From the sequence record PV159336: DNA of 64,000 bases; one strand, 5' to 3'. Below are positions 3,774-22,275 of this stretch, one piece after another. This stretch comes from Escherichia phage W22. A program made the position numbers and the translations under genes. Below the pieces are notes generated by a model. That model worked only from the letters and a program-made list of their open reading frames with translations. It made no database searches and had not been told where the DNA came from. Numbering within the stretch: position 1 is the stretch's first letter; each line of letters begins with the position of its first letter.

Positions 3774-3957
3774 TAGTGCTCACCTTTTTAGCTACATAAT
3801 CTCCAGGTGGAATGTTATATTTAAAGAAAAGCATACGGTCTAAACCAGCCTTACACATGTTTTCTGGGATTGTGATTGTATATAGGAGTTTATCTCCACG
3901 TTTATTGTATATTTTATATACTTCACCCTCTCCGTATTGTTTACCATGAGAAGCCAT
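3763..3957 (-). CDS. hypothetical protein (64 aa)
   Basis: ORF track. Confidence 0.35.
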   Translation of the reverse strand: MASHGKQYGEGEVYKIYNKRGDKLLYTITIPENMCKAGLDRMLFFKYNIPPGDYVAKKVSTIGK

Positions 3958-14748: not shown

Positions 14749-15117
14749 CTAATTAACGTCAGCACTATGATTGTTGAGAGTATAGGATACTCCATCGCCC
14801 AAGTCAACATGAATCTCAACTCCTAACTGTCTTTCTAATGGTAAACGTTTTGAGAATTGATAATTACAAAGTTTACAGTCTAAGTCAAGCAACTCATGTT
14901 TGCTTAAACCTGCAACGATAACTTTGCTTCCCACTGTCCACTCAATACCTTCAAAGTTATCTCTTCTTTTCAAAATGTCAAGTAAGAAAATGATTTGTTG
15001 CCATTCCGTAGACAAGTCTTCTTCATAGAATGCAGAACAAAAAGTTTTATCATCGTAGAAAGCATACATTATGCCTCCATCTATTGTTTCACTTCTAACG
15101 TAACGTGTGACCCTCAT
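14749..15117 (-). CDS. hypothetical protein, first gene of the minus-strand early operon
   Basis: ORF track 14749..15156; ATG at 15115-15117 preceded by AGGAGGG RBS chosen as start. Confidence 0.45.
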   Translation of the reverse strand: MRVTRYVRSETIDGGIMYAFYDDKTFCSAFYEEDLSTEWQQIIFLLDILKRRDNFEGIEWTVGSKVIVAGLSKHELLDLDCKLCNYQFSKRLPLERQLGVEIHVDLGDGVSYTLNNHSADVN

Positions 15118-15248
15118 TATTCCCTCCTGTATGGCTCTGTAACGAGCTAATAGCACCTAAGATATGCAATCACCTTACCTCACAGTAAAACTCGTTACAA
15201 TCGTTTTTAGGAGGTTTAGGTTGTACTTAAAAATAATCTAAAAAGGTG

Positions 15249-15277
15249 TTGACAAACGCAAAAAAGTATGCTACCCT
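15249..15277 (+). promoter_or_regulatory. sigma70-like promoter (TTGACA, 17 nt spacer, TGn-TACCCT)
   Basis: Consensus -35 hexamer with extended -10-like element in the divergent control region. Confidence 0.35.
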
Positions 15278-15459
15278 AACCCCCGAAAAACGCCGAGCGC
15301 AGCGAGGGGGGTGTTATCTAATCTTGTGATACATGATCTAACAGACAACTGAGTAGTCTACATATAGCACTATGTTATGTCTATAATACTAACATACATG
15401 CTCTATACTAACAATAGATTATTTATTAATTTTATTATTAATTAAATAATAAATATCTA

Positions 15460-15488
15460 TTGACTTTAGATCTATCTGTATGTAGATT
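15460..15488 (+). promoter_or_regulatory. sigma70-like promoter upstream of the PRPP-synthetase-like gene
   Basis: TTGACT, 17 nt, TAGATT about 40 nt upstream of the 15528 start. Confidence 0.45.
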
Positions 15489-15527
15489 AGAGAACATAAA
15501 GTCCTAACTCAACTAAGGAGATAAAGA

Positions 15528-16421
15528 ATGAAAGTTAGTATTCTGCATGGTGTTGACTGTTATGTTACTGATGTAGACGTTAAAGTGTTTACATTCTCTG
15601 GTGGAGAACAACATGTTCAATTAGATACGAATCTATCAGGTTTCAATCATGCTACAGACAGAATCTTACTCACTTTAGAAGTAAGATCTGCTAAAGACTT
15701 GATGACTTTGGTTATGACTAAGAATGCATTGGACAATATGCTATATCATAAACCATATTGTGTTGATTTACTCATGTTGTATGTGCCGTATGCACGACAA
15801 GACAGAGTGTGTGAGCCTGGGGAAGCATTCGGAGTTAAAGCATTTGCTTCTATAATTAATTCATTAAATTTCTCACGTGTTATCGTTGCTGATCCACATA
15901 GTGATGTTACTCCAGCAGTGTTTGACAGACTCTGTGTAATACCTCAAGAAGAGATTGCTTACGAAACTTTAAAGTGGAAGTTACGTATGGAGAATTTTGC
16001 TCTTGTTAGCCCTGATGGTGGTGCTCTTAAGAAAATATTTAAATTATCTAAGAAAATGTCTTTAGATGTGTTCTGTGCAGAGAAGGTTAGAGATACCGCA
16101 ACAGGTGCTATTGTTCGTACAGACATTTCTGTACAGGATTTCAATAAGCGTAACCTGATGATCGTAGATGATATCTGTGATGGTGGTAGAACTTTTATCG
16201 AATTGGCTAAAGTGCTACGTGCTCGTAACGCAGGTAAGATTGAGCTATATGTTACACACGGTATCTTTTCTAAAGGTCTTAAAGAGTTGAGTGAGCACTT
16301 TGACTGCATTCATTCTCTTAATGTGTGGGAAGATAACATCCAAGAAGATTCCGGTGTTCTTGTTAAGAATCAGTCAGATTTGCAACAACAAATTGTATCT
16401 CCATACGTGTGGAATTTTTAA
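15528..16421 (+). CDS. prs: ribose-phosphate pyrophosphokinase (PRPP synthetase)-like; possibly ADP-ribose pyrophosphokinase of an NAD+ reconstitution pathway
   Basis: 297 aa; PRPP-binding loop LMIVDDICDGGRTF; AGGAG RBS. Confidence 0.7.
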   Translation: MKVSILHGVDCYVTDVDVKVFTFSGGEQHVQLDTNLSGFNHATDRILLTLEVRSAKDLMTLVMTKNALDNMLYHKPYCVDLLMLYVPYARQDRVCEPGEAFGVKAFASIINSLNFSRVIVADPHSDVTPAVFDRLCVIPQEEIAYETLKWKLRMENFALVSPDGGALKKIFKLSKKMSLDVFCAEKVRDTATGAIVRTDISVQDFNKRNLMIVDDICDGGRTFIELAKVLRARNAGKIELYVTHGIFSKGLKELSEHFDCIHSLNVWEDNIQEDSGVLVKNQSDLQQQIVSPYVWNF

Positions 16422-16431
16422 ATAACAAGTG

Positions 16432-16460
16432 TTGACAATAGGGAGTATGCTTAGTAAGAT
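16432..16460 (+). promoter_or_regulatory. sigma70-like promoter (TTGACA, 17 nt, TAAGAT)
   Basis: Sequence match upstream of the 16493 start. Confidence 0.45.
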
Positions 16461-16492
16461 ACTCCCACACTAACAAACAAGGAGACATAACT

Positions 16493-18226
16493 ATGAATAT
16501 TTTTGCACCTTTTGCTACTGATTGGTACAAACCTGGTCACAAGCAGATGTACAATCAAAATACAAAACTCATTTTCTCTAATTTAACTCCTCGTAATGAT
16601 AAAAACTTTGCGCACTATGCAGATCGTGAAGCACGTGGTGTGATTGTTTTAGGTATTCGTCGAGCAGTCACTGATGCTCTTGTAACTATGTGGGATAGCT
16701 TCTTTAAAATGTCTCGTAGTGCAGCAGTAAATAAATTTTATCGTATGTCTAAAAATGCATTAGGTGCTTCTGCTCCTTCTGCTGAATGTTGGGGAGAATT
16801 GCACGATTTAGGTTATCTTCCGCTGGAAGTTCGATCTCTGCCAGAAGGTGTTTTGTGTCCTATTGGTGTTCCTGTGTTTACTGTGCATAATACTTTAGAA
16901 AAATTCTTTTGGTTAACTAACTATGTGGAAACACTGTTGTCAGATGAAACTTGGAAGACAATGACTAATGCCACAGCAGCTTTTCAGTATAAGCGTATCG
17001 CTATGGCATATGCGATGGCAACGTGTGATAATATTGATCACGTTAACTTCCAGTGTCATGATTTTAGCCTACGTGGTTTAAGTAATATCGAAGATGGTTA
17101 TAAGAGTGGTATCGCTCATTTAGCATCTTTCACAGGGACAGATAATATTCTGGCTATTGAAACTGTGCATGATTATTATGGTATTGATTATGATCAGTTT
17201 GTTGCAGGTTCTATTCCGGCAACAGAACATTCAGTAGCAACGACTAACATTGGAGCTATTGTTGAAGACCTGAAGAAACATTTCCCACATCTTAAAGATG
17301 ATGTAGATGGTCTTCGTTATGTAGCAGAGAAAGAGTTTCTTCGTCGTTATATTGAAGAAATTGTTCCAGAAGGTTTTTGTTCATATGTAGCAGATTCCTA
17401 TGATTACTGGGCTGTCTTGACTCGCATTCTGGTAGAATTGAAAGAATCCATTATGTCACGAAATGGTCGTCTTGTTATTCGTCCAGATTCAGGAGATCCG
17501 GTTAAAGTTGTTGCAGGATACAATGTTGAATCTTTTGATAACTATGAAGACCTTTTAAATAATGGTATTGCGACAGCCACTGAAGTAGTTCATTTGGCTG
17601 ATGTTAATAAGTATTACAATGTTCTTCAGGATTGCAGTGTTGCTGACTGTATTGATGAAACTTATGAGATTCCTTATTGTGAAGCAGTAGGTTCTATTCA
17701 AATCCTTTGGGAAGTGTTTGGTGGTACTATCAACCGAAAAGGCTACAAGGTTCTTGATCAGCATATCGGTATGATTTATGGTGATTCTATTACTGTTGAA
17801 CGAGAACACGAGATCTTACGCCGACTGAAGAAGAAAGGTTTTGCAGCTTCCAATATCGTATTTGGTGTTGGTAGTTATACTTATCAGTTCAATACACGAG
17901 ATACTTTCGGTTTTGCTGTTAAAGCAACAGGTAGTATCATCGGTGAACACGAAATTTTGGTAAGTAAGGAGCCTAAAACTGATCCTGGTAAACGCTCTGC
18001 AAAAGGTTTTATTAAGGTTGTTAAGGATACCAATGGTAATCTGTCTCTTGTAGATAATCTTTCTTTTAAAGATATCCAGGATGAAGACAATGAGTTACAA
18101 GTTATCTTCAAGGATGGTAAGGTTATTACACCACAAGTAGAAGGCCGTGATGAAACATTCACTGATATCCGCAACCGTGTTGACGTAGAGGTTCTTCGTA
18201 CTATGGGAACCATCCAGGTTGACTAA
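16493..18226 (+). CDS. nadV: nicotinamide phosphoribosyltransferase (NadV/NAMPT)-like
   Basis: 577 aa; N-terminal FATDWYKPGHKQMY and overall length typical of the NAMPT family. Confidence 0.7.
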   Translation: MNIFAPFATDWYKPGHKQMYNQNTKLIFSNLTPRNDKNFAHYADREARGVIVLGIRRAVTDALVTMWDSFFKMSRSAAVNKFYRMSKNALGASAPSAECWGELHDLGYLPLEVRSLPEGVLCPIGVPVFTVHNTLEKFFWLTNYVETLLSDETWKTMTNATAAFQYKRIAMAYAMATCDNIDHVNFQCHDFSLRGLSNIEDGYKSGIAHLASFTGTDNILAIETVHDYYGIDYDQFVAGSIPATEHSVATTNIGAIVEDLKKHFPHLKDDVDGLRYVAEKEFLRRYIEEIVPEGFCSYVADSYDYWAVLTRILVELKESIMSRNGRLVIRPDSGDPVKVVAGYNVESFDNYEDLLNNGIATATEVVHLADVNKYYNVLQDCSVADCIDETYEIPYCEAVGSIQILWEVFGGTINRKGYKVLDQHIGMIYGDSITVEREHEILRRLKKKGFAASNIVFGVGSYTYQFNTRDTFGFAVKATGSIIGEHEILVSKEPKTDPGKRSAKGFIKVVKDTNGNLSLVDNLSFKDIQDEDNELQVIFKDGKVITPQVEGRDETFTDIRNRVDVEVLRTMGTIQVD

Positions 18227-18532: not shown

Positions 18533-18643
18533 ATGTCTACAGAAATTATTTTTGGCTTATCTGTTTTTATTGCTATTGTATCTTTTGTATGCGGTTATAC
18601 ACTAGGTTACAGATCAAGAAAAAATATTGTAAAAACTAGTTGA
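18533..18643 (+). CDS. small hydrophobic protein (36 aa, one predicted TM helix)
   Basis: Manual ORF MSTEIIFGLSVFIAIVSFVCGYTLGYRSRKNIVKTS after AAGGA RBS. Confidence 0.3.
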   Translation: MSTEIIFGLSVFIAIVSFVCGYTLGYRSRKNIVKTS

Positions 18644-18669
18644 CAACATAGCTAGTTATTTGCTAAGAT
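18640..18669 (+). promoter_or_regulatory. sigma70-like promoter (TTGACA, 18 nt, TGc-TAAGAT)
   Basis: Sequence match upstream of the 18700 start. Confidence 0.4.
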
Positions 18670-18699
18670 AAGCCCAAGTTAAACAAAAAGGAGAAAACT

Positions 18700-18966
18700 A
18701 TGACAGAACGTACTTATGGTAAAGAACTGATTGAGAAGCACGTATTGATTGATAATAAAGGTGGAGCAATCTTTATTTTTGAACCTGAATCAGTTCTTAC
18801 TGAAAACGAAAATGGTAGCGTTAGCCTTAAAACAGAAAGTTTGGTAATTGACTTCCTTGCTCTTCTGGATGAAATGGGGCTTCCTCACGAAGAAGAAGCA
18901 GCTATTGCTTTGATTACAGTTCTTCTGGAGAAACGCGAAGCTGGTGAAATGACCCAGTATGCTTAA
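18700..18966 (+). CDS. hypothetical acidic protein (88 aa)
   Basis: ORF track; GGAG RBS. Confidence 0.45.
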   Translation: MTERTYGKELIEKHVLIDNKGGAIFIFEPESVLTENENGSVSLKTESLVIDFLALLDEMGLPHEEEAAIALITVLLEKREAGEMTQYA

Positions 18967-18973
18967 TATTCAA

Positions 18974-19049
18974 GGTTCCATAGCTCACTGACGAGAGCGC
19001 ACACCTCATAAGTGTCGAGGGCAGGGATTGTAACCCTGGGGAACCACCA
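18974..19049 (+). tRNA. tRNA, anticodon CAT (Met or Ile2), atypical T-loop
   Basis: Manual fold: acceptor GGTTCC/GGAACC, anticodon loop CTCATAA, CCA encoded. Confidence 0.45.
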
Positions 19050-19080
19050 TTTAAAAGGAGGTGCTATGCATCTCCTATAT

Positions 19081-19166
19081 GCAAGTGTGGTGGAATTGGT
19101 GATACACATTGTGCTTAAAACGCAACGCTTAAATGCTTGAGGGTTCGAATCCCTCCACTTGCACCA
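19081..19166 (+). tRNA. tRNA-Leu (anticodon TAA)
   Basis: Manual fold: acceptor GCAAGTG/CACTTGC, loop CTTAAAA, long variable arm, T-loop GGTTCGAATCC, CCA. Confidence 0.6.
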
Positions 19167-19168
19167 AC

Positions 19169-19273
19169 GCCTAGTAGGGTATTTGGTAATTCCGAGGCCA
19201 TCAAAGCCTGAAAAATATGTTAGACCGCTTTGTCTAACTAAATACGAAATATGGTTCGATTCCATAACTAGGC
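19169..19273 (+). ncRNA. atypical tRNA-like element (about 105 nt; possible UCA anticodon; no CCA)
   Basis: Perfect 7-bp acceptor GCCTAGT/ACTAGGC, T-arm TATGG-TTCGATT-CCATA, anticodon-like hairpin with loop CATCAAA, 7-bp extra arm GTTAGAC/GTCTAAC. Confidence 0.3.
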
Positions 19274-19306
19274 TTCAATTTAAATAATAATTTTAGTAAA
19301 AATATC

Positions 19307-19335
19307 TTGACATTCACTTAGTTTTTTGTTATAGT
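19307..19335 (+). promoter_or_regulatory. sigma70-like promoter (TTGACA, 17 nt, TGt-TATAGT)
   Basis: Near-consensus promoter inside the tRNA cluster. Confidence 0.5.
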
Positions 19336-19345
19336 TACTGTGAAA

Positions 19346-19427
19346 ACGGGGTGTATCTCACCTGACTTCTAATCAGGCGTTAACCGAGTAATTGGAGTAT
19401 GCAGGTTCGAATCCTGTCACCCCGACC
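19346..19427 (+). ncRNA. atypical tRNA-like element (anticodon-like loop CTTCTAA, no recognisable D-arm)
   Basis: Perfect acceptor CGGGGTG/CACCCCG plus ACCA, T-arm GCAGG-TTCGAAT-CCTGT, hairpin CCTGA-CTTCTAA-TCAGG only 7 nt after the acceptor. Confidence 0.35.
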
Positions 19428-19446
19428 AAAAAGTTTTTAAAAACTA

Positions 19447-19475
19447 CTTGACAAGCAAGATAGTTTTATGTTAGA
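19447..19475 (+). promoter_or_regulatory. sigma70-like promoter (TTGACA, 17 nt, TGt-TAGATT)
   Basis: Sequence match inside the tRNA cluster. Confidence 0.45.
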
Positions 19476-19491
19476 TTTAAAGTATGATAAC

Positions 19492-19581
19492 GGGAAGGTA
19501 GGGCGCAGCGGTGCGCAACCAGGTTTGAACCCTGGCCCATTGTAGCGATACGGTGATGGTTCGACTCCATTATCTTCCTCC
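19492..19581 (+). tRNA. tRNA-Ser (anticodon TGA)
   Basis: Manual fold: acceptor GGAAGGT/ATCTTCC, stem CCAGG/CCTGG with loop TTTGAAC, long variable arm, CCA. Confidence 0.55.
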
Positions 19582-19600
19582 AAATTCAACTAGGAGCTTT

Positions 19601-19753
19601 ATGAATTATAAAACTATTGGACAGGTTGTTACCGGAGTTAAGATTGTAGATAATAAAGTTGTTTATGAGTATTCTAATCTTCAACAATCTGAAGATGGTA
19701 AGAATATTCGTATGGTAAAAGCAGAACAAAAAGATTCCGGTTGTTTTGAATAA
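19601..19753 (+). CDS. small hypothetical protein (50 aa)
   Basis: ORF track 19553..19753 overlaps tRNA-Ser; internal ATG after AGGAG RBS chosen. Confidence 0.35.
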   Translation: MNYKTIGQVVTGVKIVDNKVVYEYSNLQQSEDGKNIRMVKAEQKDSGCFE

Positions 19754-19761
19754 TTAAGAAC

Positions 19762-19847
19762 GGTAGATTGGTGAAATGGTAGCCACAACAGTTTGCTAAA
19801 CTGTCGTCGGAAACGGCGTGTAGGTTCAAGTCCTACATCTACCGCCA
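19762..19847 (+). tRNA. tRNA-Ser (anticodon GCT)
   Basis: Manual fold: acceptor GGTAGAT/ATCTACC, stem ACAGT/ACTGT loop TTGCTAA, long variable arm, discriminator G, CCA. Confidence 0.6.
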
Positions 19848-19974
19848 AGTTATCTTTAATGTAGCTTGTAATCTTACTTTAATAGAGTAAACTTTCGGCA
19901 GATGGCCCCCCACCATCTTACCGATATCCCATAGTCAAGTGCCGCAAACACTGGCTATTTTAAAGATAATTTAT

Positions 19975-20050
19975 ACATCGTTAGCTTAGTTGGTAGAGCA
20001 AGGGGCTTTTAACTCCAAGGTCGAAGGTTCGAATCCTTCACGATGTACCA
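19975..20050 (+). tRNA. tRNA-Lys (anticodon TTT)
   Basis: Manual fold: acceptor ACATCGT/ACGATGT, D-arm GCTTAGTTGGTAGAGC, loop CTTTTAA, T-loop GGTTCGAATCC, CCA. Confidence 0.6.
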
Positions 20051-20055
20051 AACAC

Positions 20056-20142
20056 GTAGGTATCGCATAGCGGCAATTGCTGGAGACTGTAAATCTCTTG
20101 CCCTTCGGGGCTTCGTTGGTTCGAGTCCAACTACCTGCACCA
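20056..20142 (+). tRNA. tRNA-Tyr (anticodon GTA)
   Basis: Manual fold: acceptor GTAGGTA/TACCTGC, stem GGAGA/TCTCT loop CTGTAAA, long variable arm, CCA. Confidence 0.6.
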
Positions 20143-20149
20143 AATTAAA

Positions 20150-20234
20150 GATGGATTGGCCTAGTGGTTGGGCGACGGACTGTTAATCCGTGAACGAAAG
20201 TTCTAGCAAGGTTCAAATCCTTGATCCATCGCCA
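20150..20234 (+). tRNA. tRNA with Asn anticodon GTT on a class-II (long variable arm) scaffold
   Basis: Manual fold: acceptor GATGGAT/ATCCATC, stem ACGGA/TCCGT loop CTGTTAA, 15-nt variable arm GAAC-GAAA-GTTC, discriminator G, CCA. Confidence 0.45.
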
Positions 20235-20241
20235 GAATTAT

Positions 20242-20318
20242 GGACTTGTAGAGTTAAGGTAAACCTCCAGTCGCCAAGAGGCTTCTGGAATTGCAGGTAT
20301 CGAATCCTGCCGAGTCCA
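20242..20318 (+). ncRNA. atypical tRNA-like element (anticodon unresolved, 8-nt T-loop, no CCA)
   Basis: 7-bp acceptor GGACTTG/CGAGTCC and T-arm GCAGG-TATCGAAT-CCTGC; no clean anticodon arm found. Confidence 0.3.
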
Positions 20319-20324
20319 AGTATT

Positions 20325-20399
20325 GCTCCTATCGTATAACGGCTATTACGGTTGCCTTGTAAGCAACTTATCAGGGTTCGAGTCCTTGTGGGAGCACCA
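20325..20399 (+). tRNA. tRNA-Thr (anticodon TGT)
   Basis: Manual fold: acceptor GCTCCTA/TGGGAGC, stem GTTGC/GCAAC loop CTTGTAA, CCA. Confidence 0.6.
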
Positions 20400-20416
20400 A
20401 TTTTAACTCTAAAGGA

Positions 20417-20746
20417 GTGTATGTGACAGAAAAAGAGTTAGAGAAATATTTTAATATCAATGTTTTCGATGGTTTTGATGATATTGAAGATGTTGAAAGA
20501 TATTATGAAGTAGAGTTAGATAAGGATAACATTGTAATTCTTTCTGCCACTTATGATTGTGCATATTATGAAGGTGAATCTCACGTTTATTTTTATGATA
20601 TGAAAACATCTTTGTTTTATGAAGTACACGCATATCATTGTTCTTGTTATGGCTTAGAAGGTCAGTGGGAACCTGAAGAAATAGGTGATTTGGACTTTAC
20701 TATTGCATATCTAAACAGACGTGGTGCATCTACTATTTTAAAATAA
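20417..20746 (+). CDS. hypothetical Cys/His-containing protein inside the tRNA cluster
   Basis: ORF track (109 aa); GTG start region after AAGGAG RBS; motif HAYHCSCYG. Confidence 0.45.
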   Translation: MYVTEKELEKYFNINVFDGFDDIEDVERYYEVELDKDNIVILSATYDCAYYEGESHVYFYDMKTSLFYEVHAYHCSCYGLEGQWEPEEIGDLDFTIAYLNRRGASTILK

Positions 20747-20760
20747 ATATCAAAAGCCTC

Positions 20761-20789
20761 TTGACAAAGGGGCTAATAATATGTTAGAG
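20761..20789 (+). promoter_or_regulatory. sigma70-like promoter (TTGACA, 17 nt, TGt-TAGAGT)
   Basis: Sequence match upstream of tRNA-Gly. Confidence 0.45.
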
Positions 20790-20801
20790 TAATATTGTTA
20801 A

Positions 20802-20876
20802 GCGGGTATAGTGTTAATGGTAGCATATGAGGTTTCCACCCTCCAGGTGCAGGTTCAAGTCCTGTTACTCGCTCCA
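20802..20876 (+). tRNA. tRNA-Gly (anticodon TCC)
   Basis: Manual fold: acceptor GCGGGTA/TACTCGC, loop TTTCCAC, T-loop GGTTCAAGTCC, CCA. Confidence 0.55.
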
Positions 20877-20975
20877 AGATTATTTAAATGGAATCGCTAG
20901 AGAAAATTTCTCTTTTCGCTCATGGTTTTCTCCTTCAAACTCTAGCGGTTCTTTTTAAGTGATTTTTAGTTTTAT

Positions 20976-21050
20976 TGGAGATTAGCCTAGTGGGAAGGCA
21001 ACGGCCTTTGAAGTCGTGATGACTAGGTTCGATTCCTAGATCTCCAGCCA
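20976..21050 (+). tRNA. tRNA-Gln (anticodon TTG)
   Basis: Manual fold: acceptor TGGAGAT/ATCTCCA, stem ACGGC/GTCGT loop CTTTGAA, T-loop GGTTCGATTCC, CCA. Confidence 0.55.
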
Positions 21051-21057
21051 GTATTTA

Positions 21058-21133
21058 CAGTGCGTAGCGCAGTTGGTAGCGTGGGAGCTTTGGATGCTTC
21101 GGGTCGCAGGTTCGAGTCCTGCCGCACTGACCA
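21058..21133 (+). tRNA. tRNA-Pro (anticodon TGG)
   Basis: Manual fold: acceptor CAGTGCG/CGCACTG, D-arm GCGCAGTTGGTAGCG, loop TTTGGAT, T-loop GGTTCGAGTCC, CCA. Confidence 0.55.
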
Positions 21134-21138
21134 AATTT

Positions 21139-21213
21139 GCAGAGATAGCTGAGACGGATTAGTGCTACCCTGAAAAGGTAGAAAGGATGGATCGTTACCA
21201 TCTCTCTGCACCA
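21139..21213 (+). tRNA. tRNA-Phe (anticodon GAA), atypical T-loop
   Basis: Manual fold: acceptor GCAGAGA/TCTCTGC, stem CTACC/GGTAG loop CTGAAAA, CCA. Confidence 0.5.
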
Positions 21214-21289
21214 AATAACACCATCCAAGGAGTAGACTTGGTTAACTGTCAATAGCACATTGAGGCTTCTTACAGTGGTGTATTTTTAT

Positions 21290-21374
21290 GGCTAAGTGGT
21301 GGAATGGTATACACGATACGCTTAGAACGTATTGCCCCAAGGGATTGTGAGTTCGAGTCTCACCTTAGCTACCA
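21290..21374 (+). tRNA. tRNA-Leu (anticodon TAG)
   Basis: Manual fold: acceptor GGCTAAG/CTTAGCT, stem ATACG/CGTAT loop CTTAGAA, long variable arm, CCA. Confidence 0.6.
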
Positions 21375-21462
21375 TATCTAAGAGATATCATAGGGTTTGC
21401 AACGGATATCTACCGTCCTGTTAAGGATACCACGCCAAGACGGGTTATAAAGGGTTAGCCAT

Positions 21463-21538
21463 TGATAGTGTGAAGCTGGCGTTTCGAGTGCTTTCATAAG
21501 GCATTGCGAGAAGAGTTCGATTCTCTTACTATCAACCA
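21463..21538 (+). tRNA. tRNA, anticodon CAT (Met, fMet or Ile2)
   Basis: Manual fold, 76 nt: acceptor TGATAGT/ACTATCA, loop TTCATAA, T-arm AAGAG-TTCGATT-CTCTT, CCA. Confidence 0.55.
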
Positions 21539-21553
21539 AATTACTACAGATTG

Positions 21554-21632
21554 CGCGGGATAGAGGAGTCTGGTCGTCCTCGCCAGTTTCATATGCTGGA
21601 GATCGTAGGTTCAAATCCTACTCCCGCCTCCA
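21554..21632 (+). tRNA. tRNA, anticodon CAT (Met, fMet or Ile2)
   Basis: Manual fold: D-stem GAGG/CCTC, stem CCAGT/GCTGG loop TTCATAT, T-loop GGTTCAAATCC, CCA; one acceptor mismatch. Confidence 0.45.
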
Positions 21633-21697
21633 ATAAATACCTCCCTTCTGGTGTAATGATTAAGTTACATTGACACTTCAAGGAACTTATAGCCGGG

Positions 21698-21773
21698 TAG
21701 ATTTAAAAGAGTATGGTACTCAATATGGCTCCAAACCATAGATCAAGGGGTTCGATTCCTCACCTTGCTGCCA
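21698..21773 (+). ncRNA. tRNA-Trp-like element (anticodon-like loop CTCCAAA) with unpaired acceptor
   Basis: Perfect stem TATGG/CCATA with loop CTCCAAA, T-arm with TTCGATT loop, 3' CCA; no complementary 5' acceptor strand found. Confidence 0.3.
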
Positions 21774-21778
21774 ATTAT

Positions 21779-21854
21779 TGTGGTATCGTACAGATGGTTA
21801 GTACACTCGACCGATAATCGAGAAACAACGGTTCGACTCCGTTTACCACGACCA
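21779..21854 (+). tRNA. tRNA-Ile (anticodon GAT)
   Basis: Manual fold: acceptor TGTGGTA/TACCACG, D-arm GTACAGATGGTTAGTAC, stem CTCGA/TCGAG loop CCGATAA, T-loop GGTTCGACTCC, CCA. Confidence 0.55.
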
Positions 21855-21965
21855 AACTCCGTGCCAGCGGTGTCTTCGAAGAACAAGCCTAGTTCCTTCT
21901 GAGATGGAGGGGTGCGACTCCTTAACGCACATACCACTACTACTAAATACTTATCAGGAGATATT

Positions 21966-22235
21966 ATGTATACTTTAAAAGTAATTCGCAAGTTTCCTCA
22001 AGAAGAGGAAGTAAGAATTTATAACACTGTACCATTCGTAGTAAATGAAGAAGAATTCTTTTATTGCTTAGAAGATGAAGTAATTATTCAATATCATTGG
22101 GAAGGTTACGACAGACAAGATGGTGTTGTAGCTTCTGTGATTGCTGGTGAAAGAGTGTTATTCATTCACAAAACTGAATCAGCATATTTAATGAATGATA
22201 AAGGACAAACTGTTAAAGTAATTAACAGACCATAA
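21966..22235 (+). CDS. hypothetical protein (89 aa)
   Basis: ORF track 21912..22235 trimmed to the ATG after CAGGAG RBS; followed by an intrinsic terminator. Confidence 0.45.
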   Translation: MYTLKVIRKFPQEEEVRIYNTVPFVVNEEEFFYCLEDEVIIQYHWEGYDRQDGVVASVIAGERVLFIHKTESAYLMNDKGQTVKVINRP

Positions 22236-22246
22236 AGAATTTTATA

Positions 22247-22275
22247 AAAGCCTCCTTTTTGGAGGTTTTTTATTA
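22247..22275 (+). terminator. rho-independent terminator
   Basis: AAAGCCTCC-TTTTT-GGAGGTTTTTT hairpin with U-tract. Confidence 0.6.

What the first reader, a model, noticed from the sequence alone, without database searches (positions are those of the whole stretch)
18970..21860. Dense tRNA cluster with three CAT-anticodon tRNAs and interleaved promoters
About 16 canonical cloverleaves can be folded by hand in under 3 kb (Leu-TAA, Leu-TAG, Ser-TGA, Ser-GCT, Tyr, Lys, Thr, Gly, Gln, Pro, Phe, Ile-GAT and three with CAT), almost all with encoded CCA. Three CAT tRNAs likely cover initiator Met, elongator Met and lysidine-modified Ile2. Several near-consensus promoters and small ORFs sit between them, so the cluster is made of multiple transcription units.
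Basis: seen in the sequence. Interest (0 to 1): 0.5.

Follow-up and report, generated by a model that had tools for sequence, protein, structure and literature searches.

The report
Phage tRNA gene cluster, T5-like
A 3-kb stretch of a phi92-like E. coli phage carries 16 ordinary tRNA genes behind host-type promoters, a layout already annotated in near-identical phages and long known from phage T5. The same stretch also hides several oddly built tRNA-like genes that annotation misses, including an arginine tRNA without a D arm.

Summary
ARAGORN finds 16 plus-strand tRNA genes at 18974-21854, all with an encoded CCA. Rfam confirms 13 of them at its gathering score.

The window is 99% identical to published Justusliebigvirus (phi92-like) phages, where this cluster is already annotated. 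Its layout matches the phage T5 tRNA region: Met, fMet and Ile2 CAU tRNAs, interleaved promoters, small ORFs, homing endonucleases and tRNA-like stable RNAs. The finding itself is therefore already known.

- **Three CAT tRNAs:** 21554 is initiator-like, with good support. 18974 is the Ile2 candidate, with weak support. 21463 is elongator Met, by elimination.
- **Promoters:** four near-consensus sigma-70 sites lie in or just before the cluster.
- **Anticodons:** the set matches A/U-ending codons that the 38% GC phage overuses.

The interval also holds unannotated non-canonical RNAs, each conserved with compensatory changes in other phage groups:
- an Arg(UCU) tRNA without a D arm (19347-19428);
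- a Sec-like UCA tRNA (19169-19274, degraded in this window);
- a Trp-like tRNA with an insertion (21691-21773);
- a homologue of T5 RNA3 (20241-20320);
- an Asn tRNA with a long variable arm;
- a conserved hairpin RNA (20877-20965).

The parts
18640..18669 (+). Sigma-70-type promoter P1 (TTGACA-18-TAAGAT, extended -10 TG), upstream of the gp110-like ORF and the first tRNAs
18700..18966 (+). Small ORF (88 aa, phi92 gp110 family, unknown function). Its RBS and start codon are complementary to the loop of the hairpin RNA at 20877-20965.
18974..19049 (+). tRNA with anticodon CAT no. 1, the candidate tRNA-Ile2. The T loop is AUUGUAA and the D loop has no GG.
   Evidence: no Rfam hit
19081..19166 (+). 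tRNA-Leu(TAA)
19169..19274 (+). Sec-like tRNA relic: loop CAUCAAA (UCA anticodon), long variable arm, TCA in place of CCA. Absent from 3 of 10 relatives.
19307..19335 (+). Promoter P2 (TTGACA-17-TATAGT, 11/12, TG), 11 nt upstream of the next gene
19347..19428 (+). Non-canonical tRNA-Arg(UCU)-like gene. The D arm is replaced by the linker UAUCUC, a 20-nt conserved insert lies between the anticodon and T arms, and CCA is encoded.
19448..19477 (+). Promoter P3 (TTGACA-18-TAGATT, TG)
   Evidence: conserved in Phapecoctavirus
19493..19582 (+). tRNA-Ser(TGA)
   Evidence: best Rfam match is tRNA-Sec at 35 bits, below threshold
19601..19753 (+). Small ORF (50 aa, phi92 gp111 family)
19762..19847 (+). 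tRNA-Ser(GCT)
19975..20050 (+). tRNA-Lys(TTT). Positions 36-41 read UAACUC, against UAAUCA in the host.
20056..20142 (+). tRNA-Tyr(GTA)
20150..20234 (+). tRNA-Asn(GTT), 85 nt, with a long variable arm (4-bp stem plus GAAA loop)
20241..20320 (+). tRNA-like RNA with no anticodon loop and no CCA; homologue of phage T5 RNA3
   Evidence: z = -4.06
20325..20399 (+). tRNA-Thr(TGT). Positions 36-41 read UAAGCA, as in T5.
20423..20746 (+). ORF (107 aa, phi92 gp112 family, unknown function)
20761..20790 (+). Promoter P4 (TTGACA-18-TAGAGT, TG). An equivalent site lies upstream of tRNA-Gly in Phapecoctavirus and in the Klebsiella phage.
20802..20876 (+). tRNA-Gly(TCC)
20877..20965 (+). Conserved long hairpin RNA: a bipartite stem of about 23 bp with an invariant apical sequence CUCAUGGUUUUCUCCUUC, followed by a run of T
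   Evidence: (z = -4.13)
20976..21050 (+). tRNA-Gln(TTG)
21058..21133 (+). tRNA-Pro(TGG)
21139..21213 (+). tRNA-Phe(GAA), with an unusual T loop AUCGUUA
21290..21374 (+). tRNA-Leu(TAG)
21463..21538 (+). tRNA with anticodon CAT no. 2, the probable elongator Met. Dispensable: replaced by an HNH endonuclease gene in some relatives.
21554..21632 (+). tRNA with anticodon CAT no. 3, the initiator-type tRNA (1:72 mismatch)
21691..21773 (+). Non-canonical tRNA-Trp(CCA)-like gene with an A/U-rich insertion of about 10 nt between the acceptor and D stems; CCA encoded
21779..21854 (+). tRNA-Ile(GAT)
21862..21936 (+). Conserved 3'-terminal element of the cluster (..GCCAGCGGU..GGAGGGGUGCGACUCCUUAACGCACA), function unknown
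22246..22270 (+). First canonical intrinsic terminator downstream of the cluster, after the ORF at 21966-22235

Best explanation
This is the tRNA gene region of a phi92-like (Justusliebigvirus) E. coli myophage. Host sigma-70 RNA polymerase most likely transcribes it from four phage promoters: 18640, 19307, 19448 and 20761. The products would be polycistronic precursors that also carry three small ORFs. Host tRNA-processing enzymes then release the tRNAs; because CCA is encoded, none needs to be added.

The tRNAs supplement the host pool for codons that this 38% GC phage uses much more than E. coli, mainly A-ending codons and U/A-ending four-codon boxes. They also give the phage its own initiator, an elongator Met and probably an AUA-reading Ile2.

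A secondary role is likely: keeping translation running when host tRNAs are cleaved by defence nucleases (Lys, Thr, Asn, Tyr).

Shown here: the genes, their conservation, the promoters' sequence, the codon bias. Inferred: transcription units, processing, charging, the defence role.
For: Genes:
- 16 ARAGORN tRNAs, all with encoded CCA; 13 pass the Rfam gathering score.
- Across 10 related phages, 0-4 variable sites in 14 of the 16 tRNAs. The exceptions are Lys (20) and Thr (12), where some relatives carry alternative alleles, and Met3 (11). The flanking ORFs show about 4-5% variable sites, and some spacers far more.
- Compensatory changes occur in Met3's T stem, in Met2 against the Klebsiella phage copy and in all arms of Asn.

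Promoters:
- 4 of the 6 plus-strand sites in 64 kb that combine an exact TTGACA with a TG-extended -10 lie at 18640-20790. Each sits in an intergenic gap directly upstream of genes.
- Equivalent sites are present in Phapecoctavirus and in the Klebsiella phage.

Codon usage. Codons enriched in 64 phage ORFs relative to E. coli genes and read by a phage tRNA:

| Codon | Enrichment |
|---|---|
| AGA | 4.5x |
| ACA | 2.9x |
| CTA | 2.45x |
| TAT | 2.1x |
| ATA | 1.75x |
| GGA | 1.6x |
| TTA | 1.4x |

The U34 tRNAs for Thr, Ser, Pro and Leu(UAG) could also read the over-used ACT, TCT, CCT and CTT codons if they carry cmo5U as in E. coli. That point is from established knowledge and was not tested.

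Precedent:
- The T5 tRNA region has the same architecture, including Met, fMet and Ile2 CAU tRNAs and mapped promoters.
- T5 Met and fMet tRNAs were shown biochemically (Chen et al. 1975, cited in PMC4810235).

Defence:
- PARIS AriB cleaves host Lys-UUU, Thr-UGU and Asn-GUU at U36AAUC|A41, and T5 variants rescue infection (PMC12409363).
- The window's Lys (UAACUC) and Thr (UAAGCA, identical to T5's) break that motif.
- Retron-Eco7 depletes tRNA-Tyr, and a strongly promoted phage tRNA-Tyr counters it (PMC11555353).
- Lys, Tyr, Asn and Thr are contiguous at 19975-20399.
Against: - There are no expression, processing or charging data for this phage.
- Rfam's tRNA model does not recognise the CAT tRNAs at 18974 and 21463 at all.
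- The tRNA at 18974, and Phe, lack the usual G18G19/T-loop elbow sequences.
- Met2 and the Sec-like element are absent from some fully viable relatives, so not every member is needed.
- The codon-usage match is imperfect. TGG, ATG and CAA are not enriched, and ACT and TCT have no dedicated tRNA.
- The E. coli comparison set is small: 7.4k plus 5k codons from one 50-kb region that includes cryptic gsp genes.
- Asn keeps the host-like UAAUCC motif.
- No internal terminators were found, so the number of transcription units is uncertain. The hairpin at 20877-20965 followed by T's would cut off Gln-Ile if it terminated efficiently.
Confidence: 0.85

Rival explanations
1. The cluster is kept mainly as a counter-defence device. 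It would supply nuclease-resistant or over-produced copies of the tRNAs that host anticodon nucleases destroy. The non-decoding tRNA-like RNAs would act as decoys or inhibitors. Codon matching would be a side effect of AT-rich composition.
For: - Lys-Tyr-Asn-Thr are adjacent. Lys and Thr differ from the host at position 39, inside the AriB recognition motif, as the resistant T5 variants do.
- Strong promoters inside a tRNA region are what rescues T5 from retron-Eco7.
- Single tRNAs are 93-98% identical to those of unrelated phage families: Pro with T5-like phages, Thr with Felixounavirus. Alternative Lys and Thr alleles circulate within the genus. This is the pattern expected for exchangeable counter-defence cassettes.
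- Several conserved members cannot decode (the RNA3 homologue) or are structurally aberrant.
Against: - Most of the 16 tRNAs (Gly, Gln, Pro, Phe, Leu, Ser, Ile, Met) are not known nuclease targets in E. coli.
- The strongest statistical signal found here is the codon-usage match.
- Asn retains the host cleavage motif.
- No resistance assay exists for this phage.
Confidence: 0.35
2. The 'extra' elements (19169-19274, 19347-19428, 20241-20320, 21691-21773) are decaying tRNA pseudogenes, and the spacer hairpins are processing or termination signals with no function of their own.
For: - The window's Sec-like copy has a U.U in the D stem, an A.A in the T stem and TCA instead of CCA. It has no Rfam hit and is deleted in 3 of 10 relatives.
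- ARAGORN rejects all four elements at default stringency.
- The Trp-like fold is no more stable than shuffled sequence (z = +0.35).
- E. coli ArgRS is recalled to need D-loop A20, which a D-armless RNA cannot present in the normal way.
Against: Pseudogenes do not keep helices by compensatory substitution across unrelated phage families:
- Arg-like: 5/7 acceptor and 5/5 anticodon-stem pairs covary across six phage groups, with an invariant anticodon loop and insert.
- RNA3 homologue: compensatory changes in all three helices, and the same position after tRNA-Asn in T5.
- Trp-like: covariation in all four stems across three subfamilies.
- Sec-like family: 8 of 29 pairs covary.
- The Arg-like gene has the best promoter in the region (11/12). 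It replaces a canonical Arg(UCU) found at the corresponding place in Phapecoctavirus.
Confidence: 0.25
3. All three CAT tRNAs are methionine tRNAs (one initiator, two elongators) and the phage has no AUA-reading Ile2.
For: - The tRNA at 18974 has U4-A69, the pair found in E. coli tRNA-Met, not the C4-G69 of E. coli tRNA-Ile2.
- Every annotated relative labels it tRNA-Met or 'hypothetical tRNA'.
- It aligns slightly better to E. coli tRNA-Met (52) than to E. coli tRNA-Ile2 (46).
Against: - Its best match overall is T5 tRNA-Ile2 (56/78), with the same GGUUC start and the same U4-A69/C5-G68 pairs.
- ATA is 1.75x enriched in the phage and very rare in highly expressed E. coli genes.
- T4 and T5 both carry an Ile(CAU) tRNA.
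- Annotation pipelines label any CAT anticodon Met by default.
Confidence: 0.35

Closest known systems
tRNA clusters annotated in Justusliebigvirus / phi92-like phages (e.g. EC.P2, ECGD1, PATM, Paula, outra, phi92)
   Same: 97-99% nucleotide identity over the whole interval. Same gene order, the same 16 tRNAs and the same small ORFs, phi92 gp110-112.
   Different: Essentially nothing differs. Relatives vary by presence or absence of the Sec-like element, by HNH endonuclease insertions that replace Met2 or sit between Gln and Pro, and by alternative Lys, Thr and RNA3-like alleles. The public annotations omit the non-canonical genes or call one of them 'tRNA-Undet/OTHER'.
Phage T5 tRNA gene region (NC_005859, 28-38 kb)
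   Same: - A dense array of tRNAs on one strand, with tRNA-Met, initiator fMet and Ile2, all CAU.
- Mapped promoters between the tRNA groups.
- Small ORFs.
- HNH homing endonucleases.
- Annotated 'tRNA-like stable RNAs'.
- The window's 20241-20320 element is a homologue of T5 RNA3 and also follows tRNA-Asn.
- The initiator shares T5's unusual anticodon stem and U73.
   Different: - A different virus family: a siphovirus of Demerecviridae against a myovirus of Stephanstirmvirinae.
- T5 has 24 tRNAs with near-complete amino-acid coverage.
- T5's Asn is 78 nt, without the long variable arm.
- No T5 counterpart was found for the hairpin RNA, the D-armless Arg or the Sec-like RNA in the 12 kb examined.
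Phage T4 tRNA cluster (8 tRNAs plus two stable RNAs, segB homing endonuclease)
   Same: Seven of the anticodons listed for T4 recur here: Leu-UAA, Ser-UGA, Gly-UCC, Pro-UGG, Thr-UGU, Gln-UUG and Ile-GAU. Ile-CAU recurs if the 18974 tRNA is Ile2, and Arg-UCU in non-canonical form (PMC4810235). A homing endonuclease sits in the cluster (PMC2330249, listed). T4 also has small stable RNAs of unknown function among its tRNAs (from memory).
   Different: T4 tRNAs are made from two precursor clusters, and some lack an encoded CCA (from memory). Here all 16 encode CCA. No sequence similarity to the T4 stable RNAs was tested.
D-armless mitochondrial tRNA-Ser(AGY) of animals (comparison for 19347-19428)
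   Same: The acceptor, anticodon and T arms are kept while the D arm is replaced by a short linker. D-armless tRNAs came up in the literature search only for metazoan mitochondria.
   Different: The phage RNA carries an extra, sequence-invariant 20-nt insert with a GG motif between the anticodon and T arms. It works, if it works, with bacterial ribosomes, EF-Tu and ArgRS. It is not homologous to the mitochondrial tRNAs.
Bacterial tRNA-Sec (Rfam RF01852) / predicted phage suppressor tRNA-sup(tca) of Erwinia phage Hena1 (comparison for 19169-19274)
   Same: UCA anticodon, long variable arm and, in the Erwinia and Salmonella phage homologues, a 6-bp D stem with a 4-nt loop. Those homologues score 39-40 bits on the Sec model.
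   Different: - Below the Rfam gathering score of 47.
- A 7-bp rather than an 8-bp acceptor stem.
- A33 instead of U33 in all copies.
- U73.
- The window copy has lost CCA and has stem mismatches.

Membership tests
Bacterial-type tRNA genes (RF00005) | Cloverleaf recognised by dedicated predictors | tested here: met
   ARAGORN finds 16 of 16. Rfam at its gathering score confirms 13 of 16 and adds 19347-19425. The tRNAs at 18974 and 21463 have no RF00005 hit, and 19493 scores higher on tRNA-Sec.
Bacterial-type tRNA genes (RF00005) | Helices maintained by selection (conservation or covariation in relatives) | tested here: met
   0-4 variable sites in 14 of the 16 tRNAs across 10 relatives. For Asn, 100% of cells are paired and 13 of 24 pairs show compensatory changes. 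Compensatory changes also occur in the Met3 T stem.
Bacterial-type tRNA genes (RF00005) | Mature, aminoacylated RNA produced | not testable with these tools
   Needs tRNA-seq or acid-gel Northern blots of infected cells.
Bacterial initiator tRNA-fMet (for 21554-21632) | No Watson-Crick pair at 1:72 | tested here: met
   C1.C72 in the window; U.C, C.U and A.C in relatives; never a pair. The minimum-energy fold leaves position 1 unpaired.
Bacterial initiator tRNA-fMet (for 21554-21632) | Three consecutive G-C pairs (29-41, 30-40, 31-39) in the anticodon stem | tested here: not met
   The stem has A29-U41, G30-C40 and U31.G39. The annotated T5 initiator has the identical deviation, so this variant is compatible with a phage initiator but departs from the E. 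coli rule.
Bacterial initiator tRNA-fMet (for 21554-21632) | A11:U24 and the G2-C71/C3-G70 formylation determinants (features recalled from the literature) | tested here: met
   Read directly from the sequence: GAGG/CCUC D stem and CGCGGGA/UCCCGCC acceptor stem.
tRNA-Ile2 (lysidine, CAU) (for 18974-19049) | C4-G69 and C5-G68 acceptor pairs, recalled as the E. coli TilS determinants | tested here: inconclusive
   The tRNA has U4-A69 and C5-G68. The annotated T5 tRNA-Ile2 has the same two pairs and is the best overall match (56/78). E. coli ileX has C4-G69/C5-G68.
tRNA-Ile2 (lysidine, CAU) (for 18974-19049) | Lysidine at position 34 and charging with Ile | not testable with these tools
   Needs mass spectrometry and a charging assay. 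The isotype-specific models of tRNAscan-SE 2 were not available.
T5-type phage tRNA region | tRNA groups interleaved with sigma-70 promoters and small ORFs | tested here: met
   Promoters at 18640, 19307, 19448 and 20761. The ORFs belong to PHROG families. The T5 layout is shown.
T5-type phage tRNA region | Non-decoding tRNA-like stable RNAs among the tRNAs | tested here: met
   The element at 20241-20320 shares the core GUAGAGUUAAG(G)UAAACC, the AUU linker, the YAUCGAAU loop and the position after tRNA-Asn with T5 RNA3. Compensatory changes occur in three helices. Stability of the RNA in vivo was not tested.
T5-type phage tRNA region | Homing endonuclease genes inside the cluster | tested here: not met
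   None is present in this window. They occur at the same loci in the relatives UAB_1, PD114 and PATM.
tRNA-Sec (RF01852) (for 19169-19274) | Score at or above the gathering threshold; 8-bp acceptor stem; 6-bp D stem; UCA anticodon with U33 | tested here: not met
   The window copy has no hit. Homologues score 39-40 bits, below 47. The acceptor stem is 7 bp and all copies have A33. The 6-bp D stem and the UCA anticodon are present.
Class II (long variable arm) tRNAs (for Asn 20150-20234) | A base-paired variable arm maintained by covariation | tested here: met
   A 4-bp stem plus GAAA loop, with 3 of 4 pairs compensatory across 7 sequences from three phage families. In bacteria the class comprises only Leu, Ser and Tyr (PMC9976931), so an Asn member is atypical.

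The most novel reading that the evidence does not exclude
The gene at 19347-19428 is a working arginine tRNA, reading AGA, that has no D arm. Its D stem-loop is replaced by the 7-nt linker UAUCUCA. An invariant 20-nt insert (GUUAAYCGAGUAAUUGGAGUAU) after the anticodon arm supplies a relocated D-loop-like GG(A) motif. The insert may also pair GAG with the linker's CUC, extending the anticodon helix.

The family is conserved with compensatory changes in at least six unrelated groups of enterobacterial phages. It is labelled 'tRNA-OTHER/Undet' or missed by annotation. It would be the first D-armless tRNA used by a bacterial translation system.

More broadly, phage tRNA clusters would hold a hidden set of structurally rebuilt tRNAs (this one, a Trp tRNA with a connector insertion, an Asn tRNA with a long variable arm, a Sec-like UCA tRNA). 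They may have been shaped by escape from host tRNA-targeting nucleases.
Probability: 0.35. Interest if true: 0.75.

Novelty: already known. Interest (0 to 1): 0.42.

Why it matters
It is annotated in dozens of near-identical phage genomes and mirrors the classic T5 and T4 tRNA regions. Its value is as a well-resolved example of how a virulent phage equips itself for translation. It carries its own initiator, a probable AUA reader and tRNAs for its preferred A/U-ending codons. It also carries variants of exactly those tRNAs (Lys, Thr, Asn, Tyr) that recently described E. coli defence nucleases destroy.

The part that could matter more is what annotation pipelines leave in the 'spacers'. Several RNA families there keep tRNA-like helices by covariation across unrelated phages but break basic tRNA design rules.

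If the D-armless Arg(UCU) or the insertion-bearing Trp tRNA are charged and used, they would widen what bacterial synthetases, EF-Tu and ribosomes are known to accept. They would also suggest that defence pressure reshapes tRNA architecture, not only anticodon loops.

Tried and rejected
- **Minus-strand mini-ORF in the Gly-Gln spacer.** The conserved core reads GAAGGAGAAAACCATGAG on the minus strand, which looks like an RBS plus start codon. This was rejected. A 1-nt indel in Phapecoctavirus changes the frame (MSEKRNFL*, MSEKRKFSNIPV* and MSKRESFLATLY*) while the nucleotides stay invariant, so conservation is at the RNA or DNA level.
- **The hairpin RNA as a specific antisense regulator of gp110.** Its loop can pair with 16 nt of the gp110 RBS and start codon, with one G.U. 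This is conserved within the genus. No equivalent target was seen in the Phapecoctavirus or Klebsiella-phage loci, and an unrelated phage has the same generic RBS. No E. coli target was found. It is kept only as speculation.
- **The hairpin as a plain terminator.** The T run is missing in Phapecoctavirus, and termination there would silence nine downstream tRNAs that have no promoter of their own.
- **A fifth promoter at 21670 (TTGACA...TATAGC).** The spacer is only 12 nt, so it was rejected by reading the sequence.
- **ARAGORN's intron model for 19169-19274 (Asn-GTT with an 18-nt intron).** Rejected in favour of the Sec-like fold supported by homologues.
- **ARAGORN's relaxed register for the Trp-like gene (21696-21773).** Replaced by 21691-21773 after comparison with homologues.
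- **The IMG/VR pattern scan for the Asn variable arm** gave only 3 contigs and added little.
- **The spacer at 19848-19974.** It is 88% conserved in Phapecoctavirus, but my three-way alignment used wrong coordinates for one sequence and was not pursued.
- **Literature searches** found no description of long-arm phage tRNA-Asn or of D-armless phage tRNAs. Older T5 papers are not in the searchable library.

Full report
**What is there**

ARAGORN finds 16 tRNA genes in the window. All lie on the + strand between 18974 and 21854. Their anticodons are CAT (three), TAA, TAG, TGA, GCT, TTT, GTA, GTT, TGT, TCC, TTG, TGG, GAA and GAT.

All 16 carry an encoded CCA. Rfam's tRNA model passes its gathering score for 13 of them. 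It adds a further gene at 19347-19425 that ARAGORN misses.

Three ARAGORN calls are not confirmed by the Rfam tRNA model. The CAT tRNAs at 18974 and 21463 get no hit at all. Ser-TGA scores best on the tRNA-Sec model, below threshold.

**Where it comes from**

The interval is 97-99% identical to about 55 published genomes of Justusliebigvirus (phi92-like, about 147 kb, E. coli myophages). Examples are EC.P2 and ECGD1. The same tRNAs are already annotated in many of them.

A multiple alignment with ten relatives gave these counts:
- 14 of the 16 tRNAs have 0-4 variable sites.
- The flanking small ORFs have about 4-5% variable sites.
- Some spacers have 30-50%.

The cluster is also mosaic:
- Met2 and its upstream spacer are replaced by an HNH homing endonuclease gene in five relatives.
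- PATM has an HNH gene between Gln and Pro.
- Lys and Thr occur as alternative alleles.
- Single tRNAs are 93-98% identical to those of unrelated T5-like and Felixounavirus phages.

**Closest described system**

The annotated tRNA region of phage T5 has the same design:
- 24 tRNAs on one strand, including tRNA-Met(CAU), initiator tRNA-fMet(CAU) and tRNA-Ile2(CAU);
- mapped promoters between groups of tRNAs;
- small ORFs;
- three HNH endonucleases;
- seven 'stable' or 'tRNA-like stable' RNAs of unknown function.

**The three CAT tRNAs**

*21554-21632 is initiator-type.*
- It is closest to E. coli tRNA-fMet and to T5 tRNA-fMet, 57 identities each, against 46-49 for the others.
- Position 1:72 is C.C here. 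It is U.C, C.U or A.C in relatives, and never a pair.
- It has A11:U24 and G2-C71/C3-G70/G4-C69.
- Its T stem changes by compensatory substitutions among relatives.
- It lacks the three G-C pairs of the E. coli anticodon stem. It shares its exact deviation (A29-U41, G30-C40, U31.G39) and U73 with the T5 initiator.

*18974-19049 is the Ile2 candidate.*
- It matches T5 tRNA-Ile2 best (56/78), with the same GGUUC acceptor start and the same U4-A69/C5-G68 pairs.
- It has only one of the two pairs recalled as E. coli TilS determinants.
- Its T loop (AUUGUAA) and D loop (no GG) are odd.
- It is confined to this genus. Relatives label it tRNA-Met, 'hypothetical tRNA', or do not annotate it.

*21463-21538 is the probable elongator.*
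- It has U4-A69/A5-U68 as in E. coli tRNA-Met.
- It shows compensatory changes against the Klebsiella-phage copy.
- It is dispensable.

It is firm only for the initiator.

**Promoters and transcription**

Four sites score 10-11 of 12 against TTGACA-N17/18-TATAAT, each with an extended -10 TG and an A-rich upstream tract: 18640, 19307, 19448 and 20761. They are four of the six such plus-strand sites in 64 kb. Each sits in a gap directly upstream of genes. Equivalents exist upstream of Ser-TGA and Gly in Phapecoctavirus, and upstream of Gly in a Klebsiella phage.

No convincing intrinsic terminator lies inside the cluster. The first is at 22246-22270. Several transcription units are therefore likely, but their 3' ends are unknown.

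**Why the phage has these tRNAs**

I compared 64 phage ORFs (17.6k codons) with annotated genes from 50 kb of E. coli K-12. Codons both enriched in the phage and read by a phage tRNA:

| Codon | Enrichment |
|---|---|
| AGA | 4.5x |
| ACA | 2.9x |
| CTA | 2.45x |
| TAT | 2.1x |
| ATA | 1.75x |
| GGA | 1.6x |
| TTA | 1.4x |

Seven of the anticodons listed for T4 recur here, and Ile-CAU and Arg-UCU recur if the 18974 tRNA and the non-canonical Arg gene count (PMC4810235). This fits the classical codon-supplement explanation.

A second role is plausible. PARIS AriB cleaves host Lys-UUU, Thr-UGU and Asn-GUU at U36AAUC|A41, and T5 variants rescue infection (PMC12409363). The window's Lys reads UAACUC. 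Its Thr reads UAAGCA, the same as T5's. Retron-Eco7 depletes tRNA-Tyr and is countered by a strongly promoted phage tRNA-Tyr (PMC11555353). Lys, Tyr, Asn and Thr are adjacent at 19975-20399. Resistance was not tested.

**What the 'spacers' contain**

Several gaps hold structured RNAs that are conserved well beyond this genus.

1. *19347-19428, behind the best promoter.* Rfam aligns it as a tRNA whose 15-position D arm is replaced by 4 nt, with a 20-nt insertion after the anticodon arm.
   - Full-length homologues occur in 202 phage records.
   - Six sequences were aligned: Justusliebigvirus, Felixounavirus, a 351-kb jumbo phage, a Klebsiella phage, a T5-like Serratia phage and phage FH3.
   - Compensatory changes occur in 5 of 7 acceptor pairs and 5 of 5 anticodon-stem pairs.
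   - The linker UAUCUC, the anticodon loop CUUCUAA (UCU, Arg) and the insert GUUAAYCGAGUAAUUGGAGUAU are invariant.
   - The linker equals positions 8-14 of E. coli argU (UAGCUCA). The insert resembles argU's D loop (AGUUGGAUA).
   - A CUC/GAG helix enclosing the anticodon arm is fully paired, with one compensatory change. A local hairpin is the alternative. The data do not decide between them.
   - In two other phages the gene sits 8-9 nt after another tRNA.
   - Phapecoctavirus has a canonical Arg(UCU) instead.
   - AGA is the most phage-enriched codon.
2. *Asn-GTT (85 nt).* It has a 4-bp variable arm capped by GAAA. Three of the four pairs covary among seven sequences from Stephanstirmvirinae, Vequintavirinae and Demerecviridae. 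A related query finds 752 phage records. Bacterial class II tRNAs are otherwise Leu, Ser and Tyr (PMC9976931). A Klebsiella relative has a Glu tRNA with the same kind of arm.
3. *20241-20320.* It has no anticodon loop and no CCA. It is a homologue of T5 RNA3, with a shared core, linker and loop, and the same position after Asn. Compensatory changes occur in three helices. Its allele occurs in 87 records and is never annotated.
4. *21691-21773.* It is a Trp(CCA)-like tRNA with an A/U-rich insertion of about 10 nt between the acceptor and D stems. It covaries in all four stems with copies in Klebsiella, Ounavirinae and Vequintavirinae phages.
5. *19169-19274.* It belongs to a family annotated 'tRNA-sup(tca)' in Erwinia phage Hena1. 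Homologues score 39-40 bits on Rfam tRNA-Sec and have a 6-bp D stem, the loop CAUCAAA and CCA. The window copy has stem mismatches, TCA in place of CCA and no Rfam hit. It is deleted in three relatives, so it is probably decaying. The phage rarely uses TGA stops: 6 of 64 ORFs.
6. *20877-20965.* It is a long bipartite hairpin (z = -4.13) present in all three Stephanstirmvirinae lineages examined. The stem varies by compensation and the apical sequence is invariant.
7. *21862-21936.* It is a sequence-conserved element that ends the cluster in all three lineages.

**Verdict**

The finding is correct and its interpretation is largely right. As stated, it describes a feature already annotated in public genomes and long known in principle from T4 and T5, so novelty is 'already known' and intrinsic interest is modest.

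I raise the score somewhat because the same interval contains covariation-supported, unannotated, non-canonical tRNA families. I could find no description of them. Older T5 literature is not searchable here, and T5's 'tRNA-like stable RNAs' are a clear precedent for at least one of them.

Noticed in passing
window 20877-20965; L016:2600-2691; L003:3450-3548: A conserved bipartite hairpin RNA of about 90 nt lies between tRNA-Gly and tRNA-Gln in three Stephanstirmvirinae lineages. The stem covaries. The invariant loop CUCAUGGUUUUCUCCUUC looks like an anti-RBS/anti-start sequence and can pair with the gp110 translation start at 18687-18704. There is no Rfam match. The long duplex could equally be an RNase III site.
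   Followed up: partly
window 21862-21936; L003:3945-4020; L016:4262-4335: A sequence-conserved element (..GCCAGCGGU..UUCCUUCU.AGAUGGAGGGGUGCGACUCCUUAACGCACA) closes the tRNA cluster in all three lineages. It follows a different last tRNA in each. There is little covariation and the function is unknown.
   Followed up: partly
window 19848-19974; L003:2604-2702: The spacer after tRNA-Ser(GCT) is 88% identical to its Phapecoctavirus counterpart and holds two hairpins (AGAUGG..CCAUCU and AUAGUC..GGCUAU). It is the most variable spacer within the genus: 68 of 127 sites.
   Followed up: no
L016:2692-2780 (Klebsiella phage phi1_175008): A tRNA-Glu(TTC) of 89 nt carries a GUAG-GAAA-CUAC variable arm, the same kind of GNRA-capped extra arm as the phage Asn tRNA. 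Such arms therefore recur on normally short-armed isoacceptors in phages.
   Followed up: no
L003:2407-2496, 2719-2805 and 3790-3860 (phage anhysbys); L016:1271-1347 and 3843-3918: Public annotations of related phages miss several plausible tRNAs that can be read by eye. In Phapecoctavirus these are Ser-TGA-like, Tyr-GTA-like and a tRNA-like minihelix. In the Klebsiella phage they are Asp-GTC-like and the Met2 orthologue.
   Followed up: no
window 19493-19582: tRNA-Ser(TGA) can be drawn with an 8-bp acceptor stem and a 4-bp T stem, and it scores higher on Rfam tRNA-Sec (35 bits) than on the general tRNA model. Its discriminator is U rather than the G of E. coli tRNA-Ser (the latter from memory).
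   Followed up: no
hits: Records named 'Campylobacter phage' (A110a, A145, A150, B15, C3), 'Acinetobacter phage ABPW7' and 'Listeria phage LPML1' carry tRNA-cluster sequence identical or nearly identical to E. coli Stephanstirmvirinae or Ounavirinae phages. Their host labels are probably wrong, or the stocks were contaminated.
   Followed up: no
window 16493-18226: A 577-aa ORF just upstream of the cluster belongs to the nicotinate/nicotinamide phosphoribosyltransferase family (Pfam PF04095, 129 bits). It is a phage NAD-salvage gene.
   Followed up: partly
window about 15000-16500: GC skew and ORF orientation switch from the minus strand (1-15 kb) to the plus strand (16-62 kb). The tRNA cluster lies about 3 kb into the plus-strand block.
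   Followed up: no
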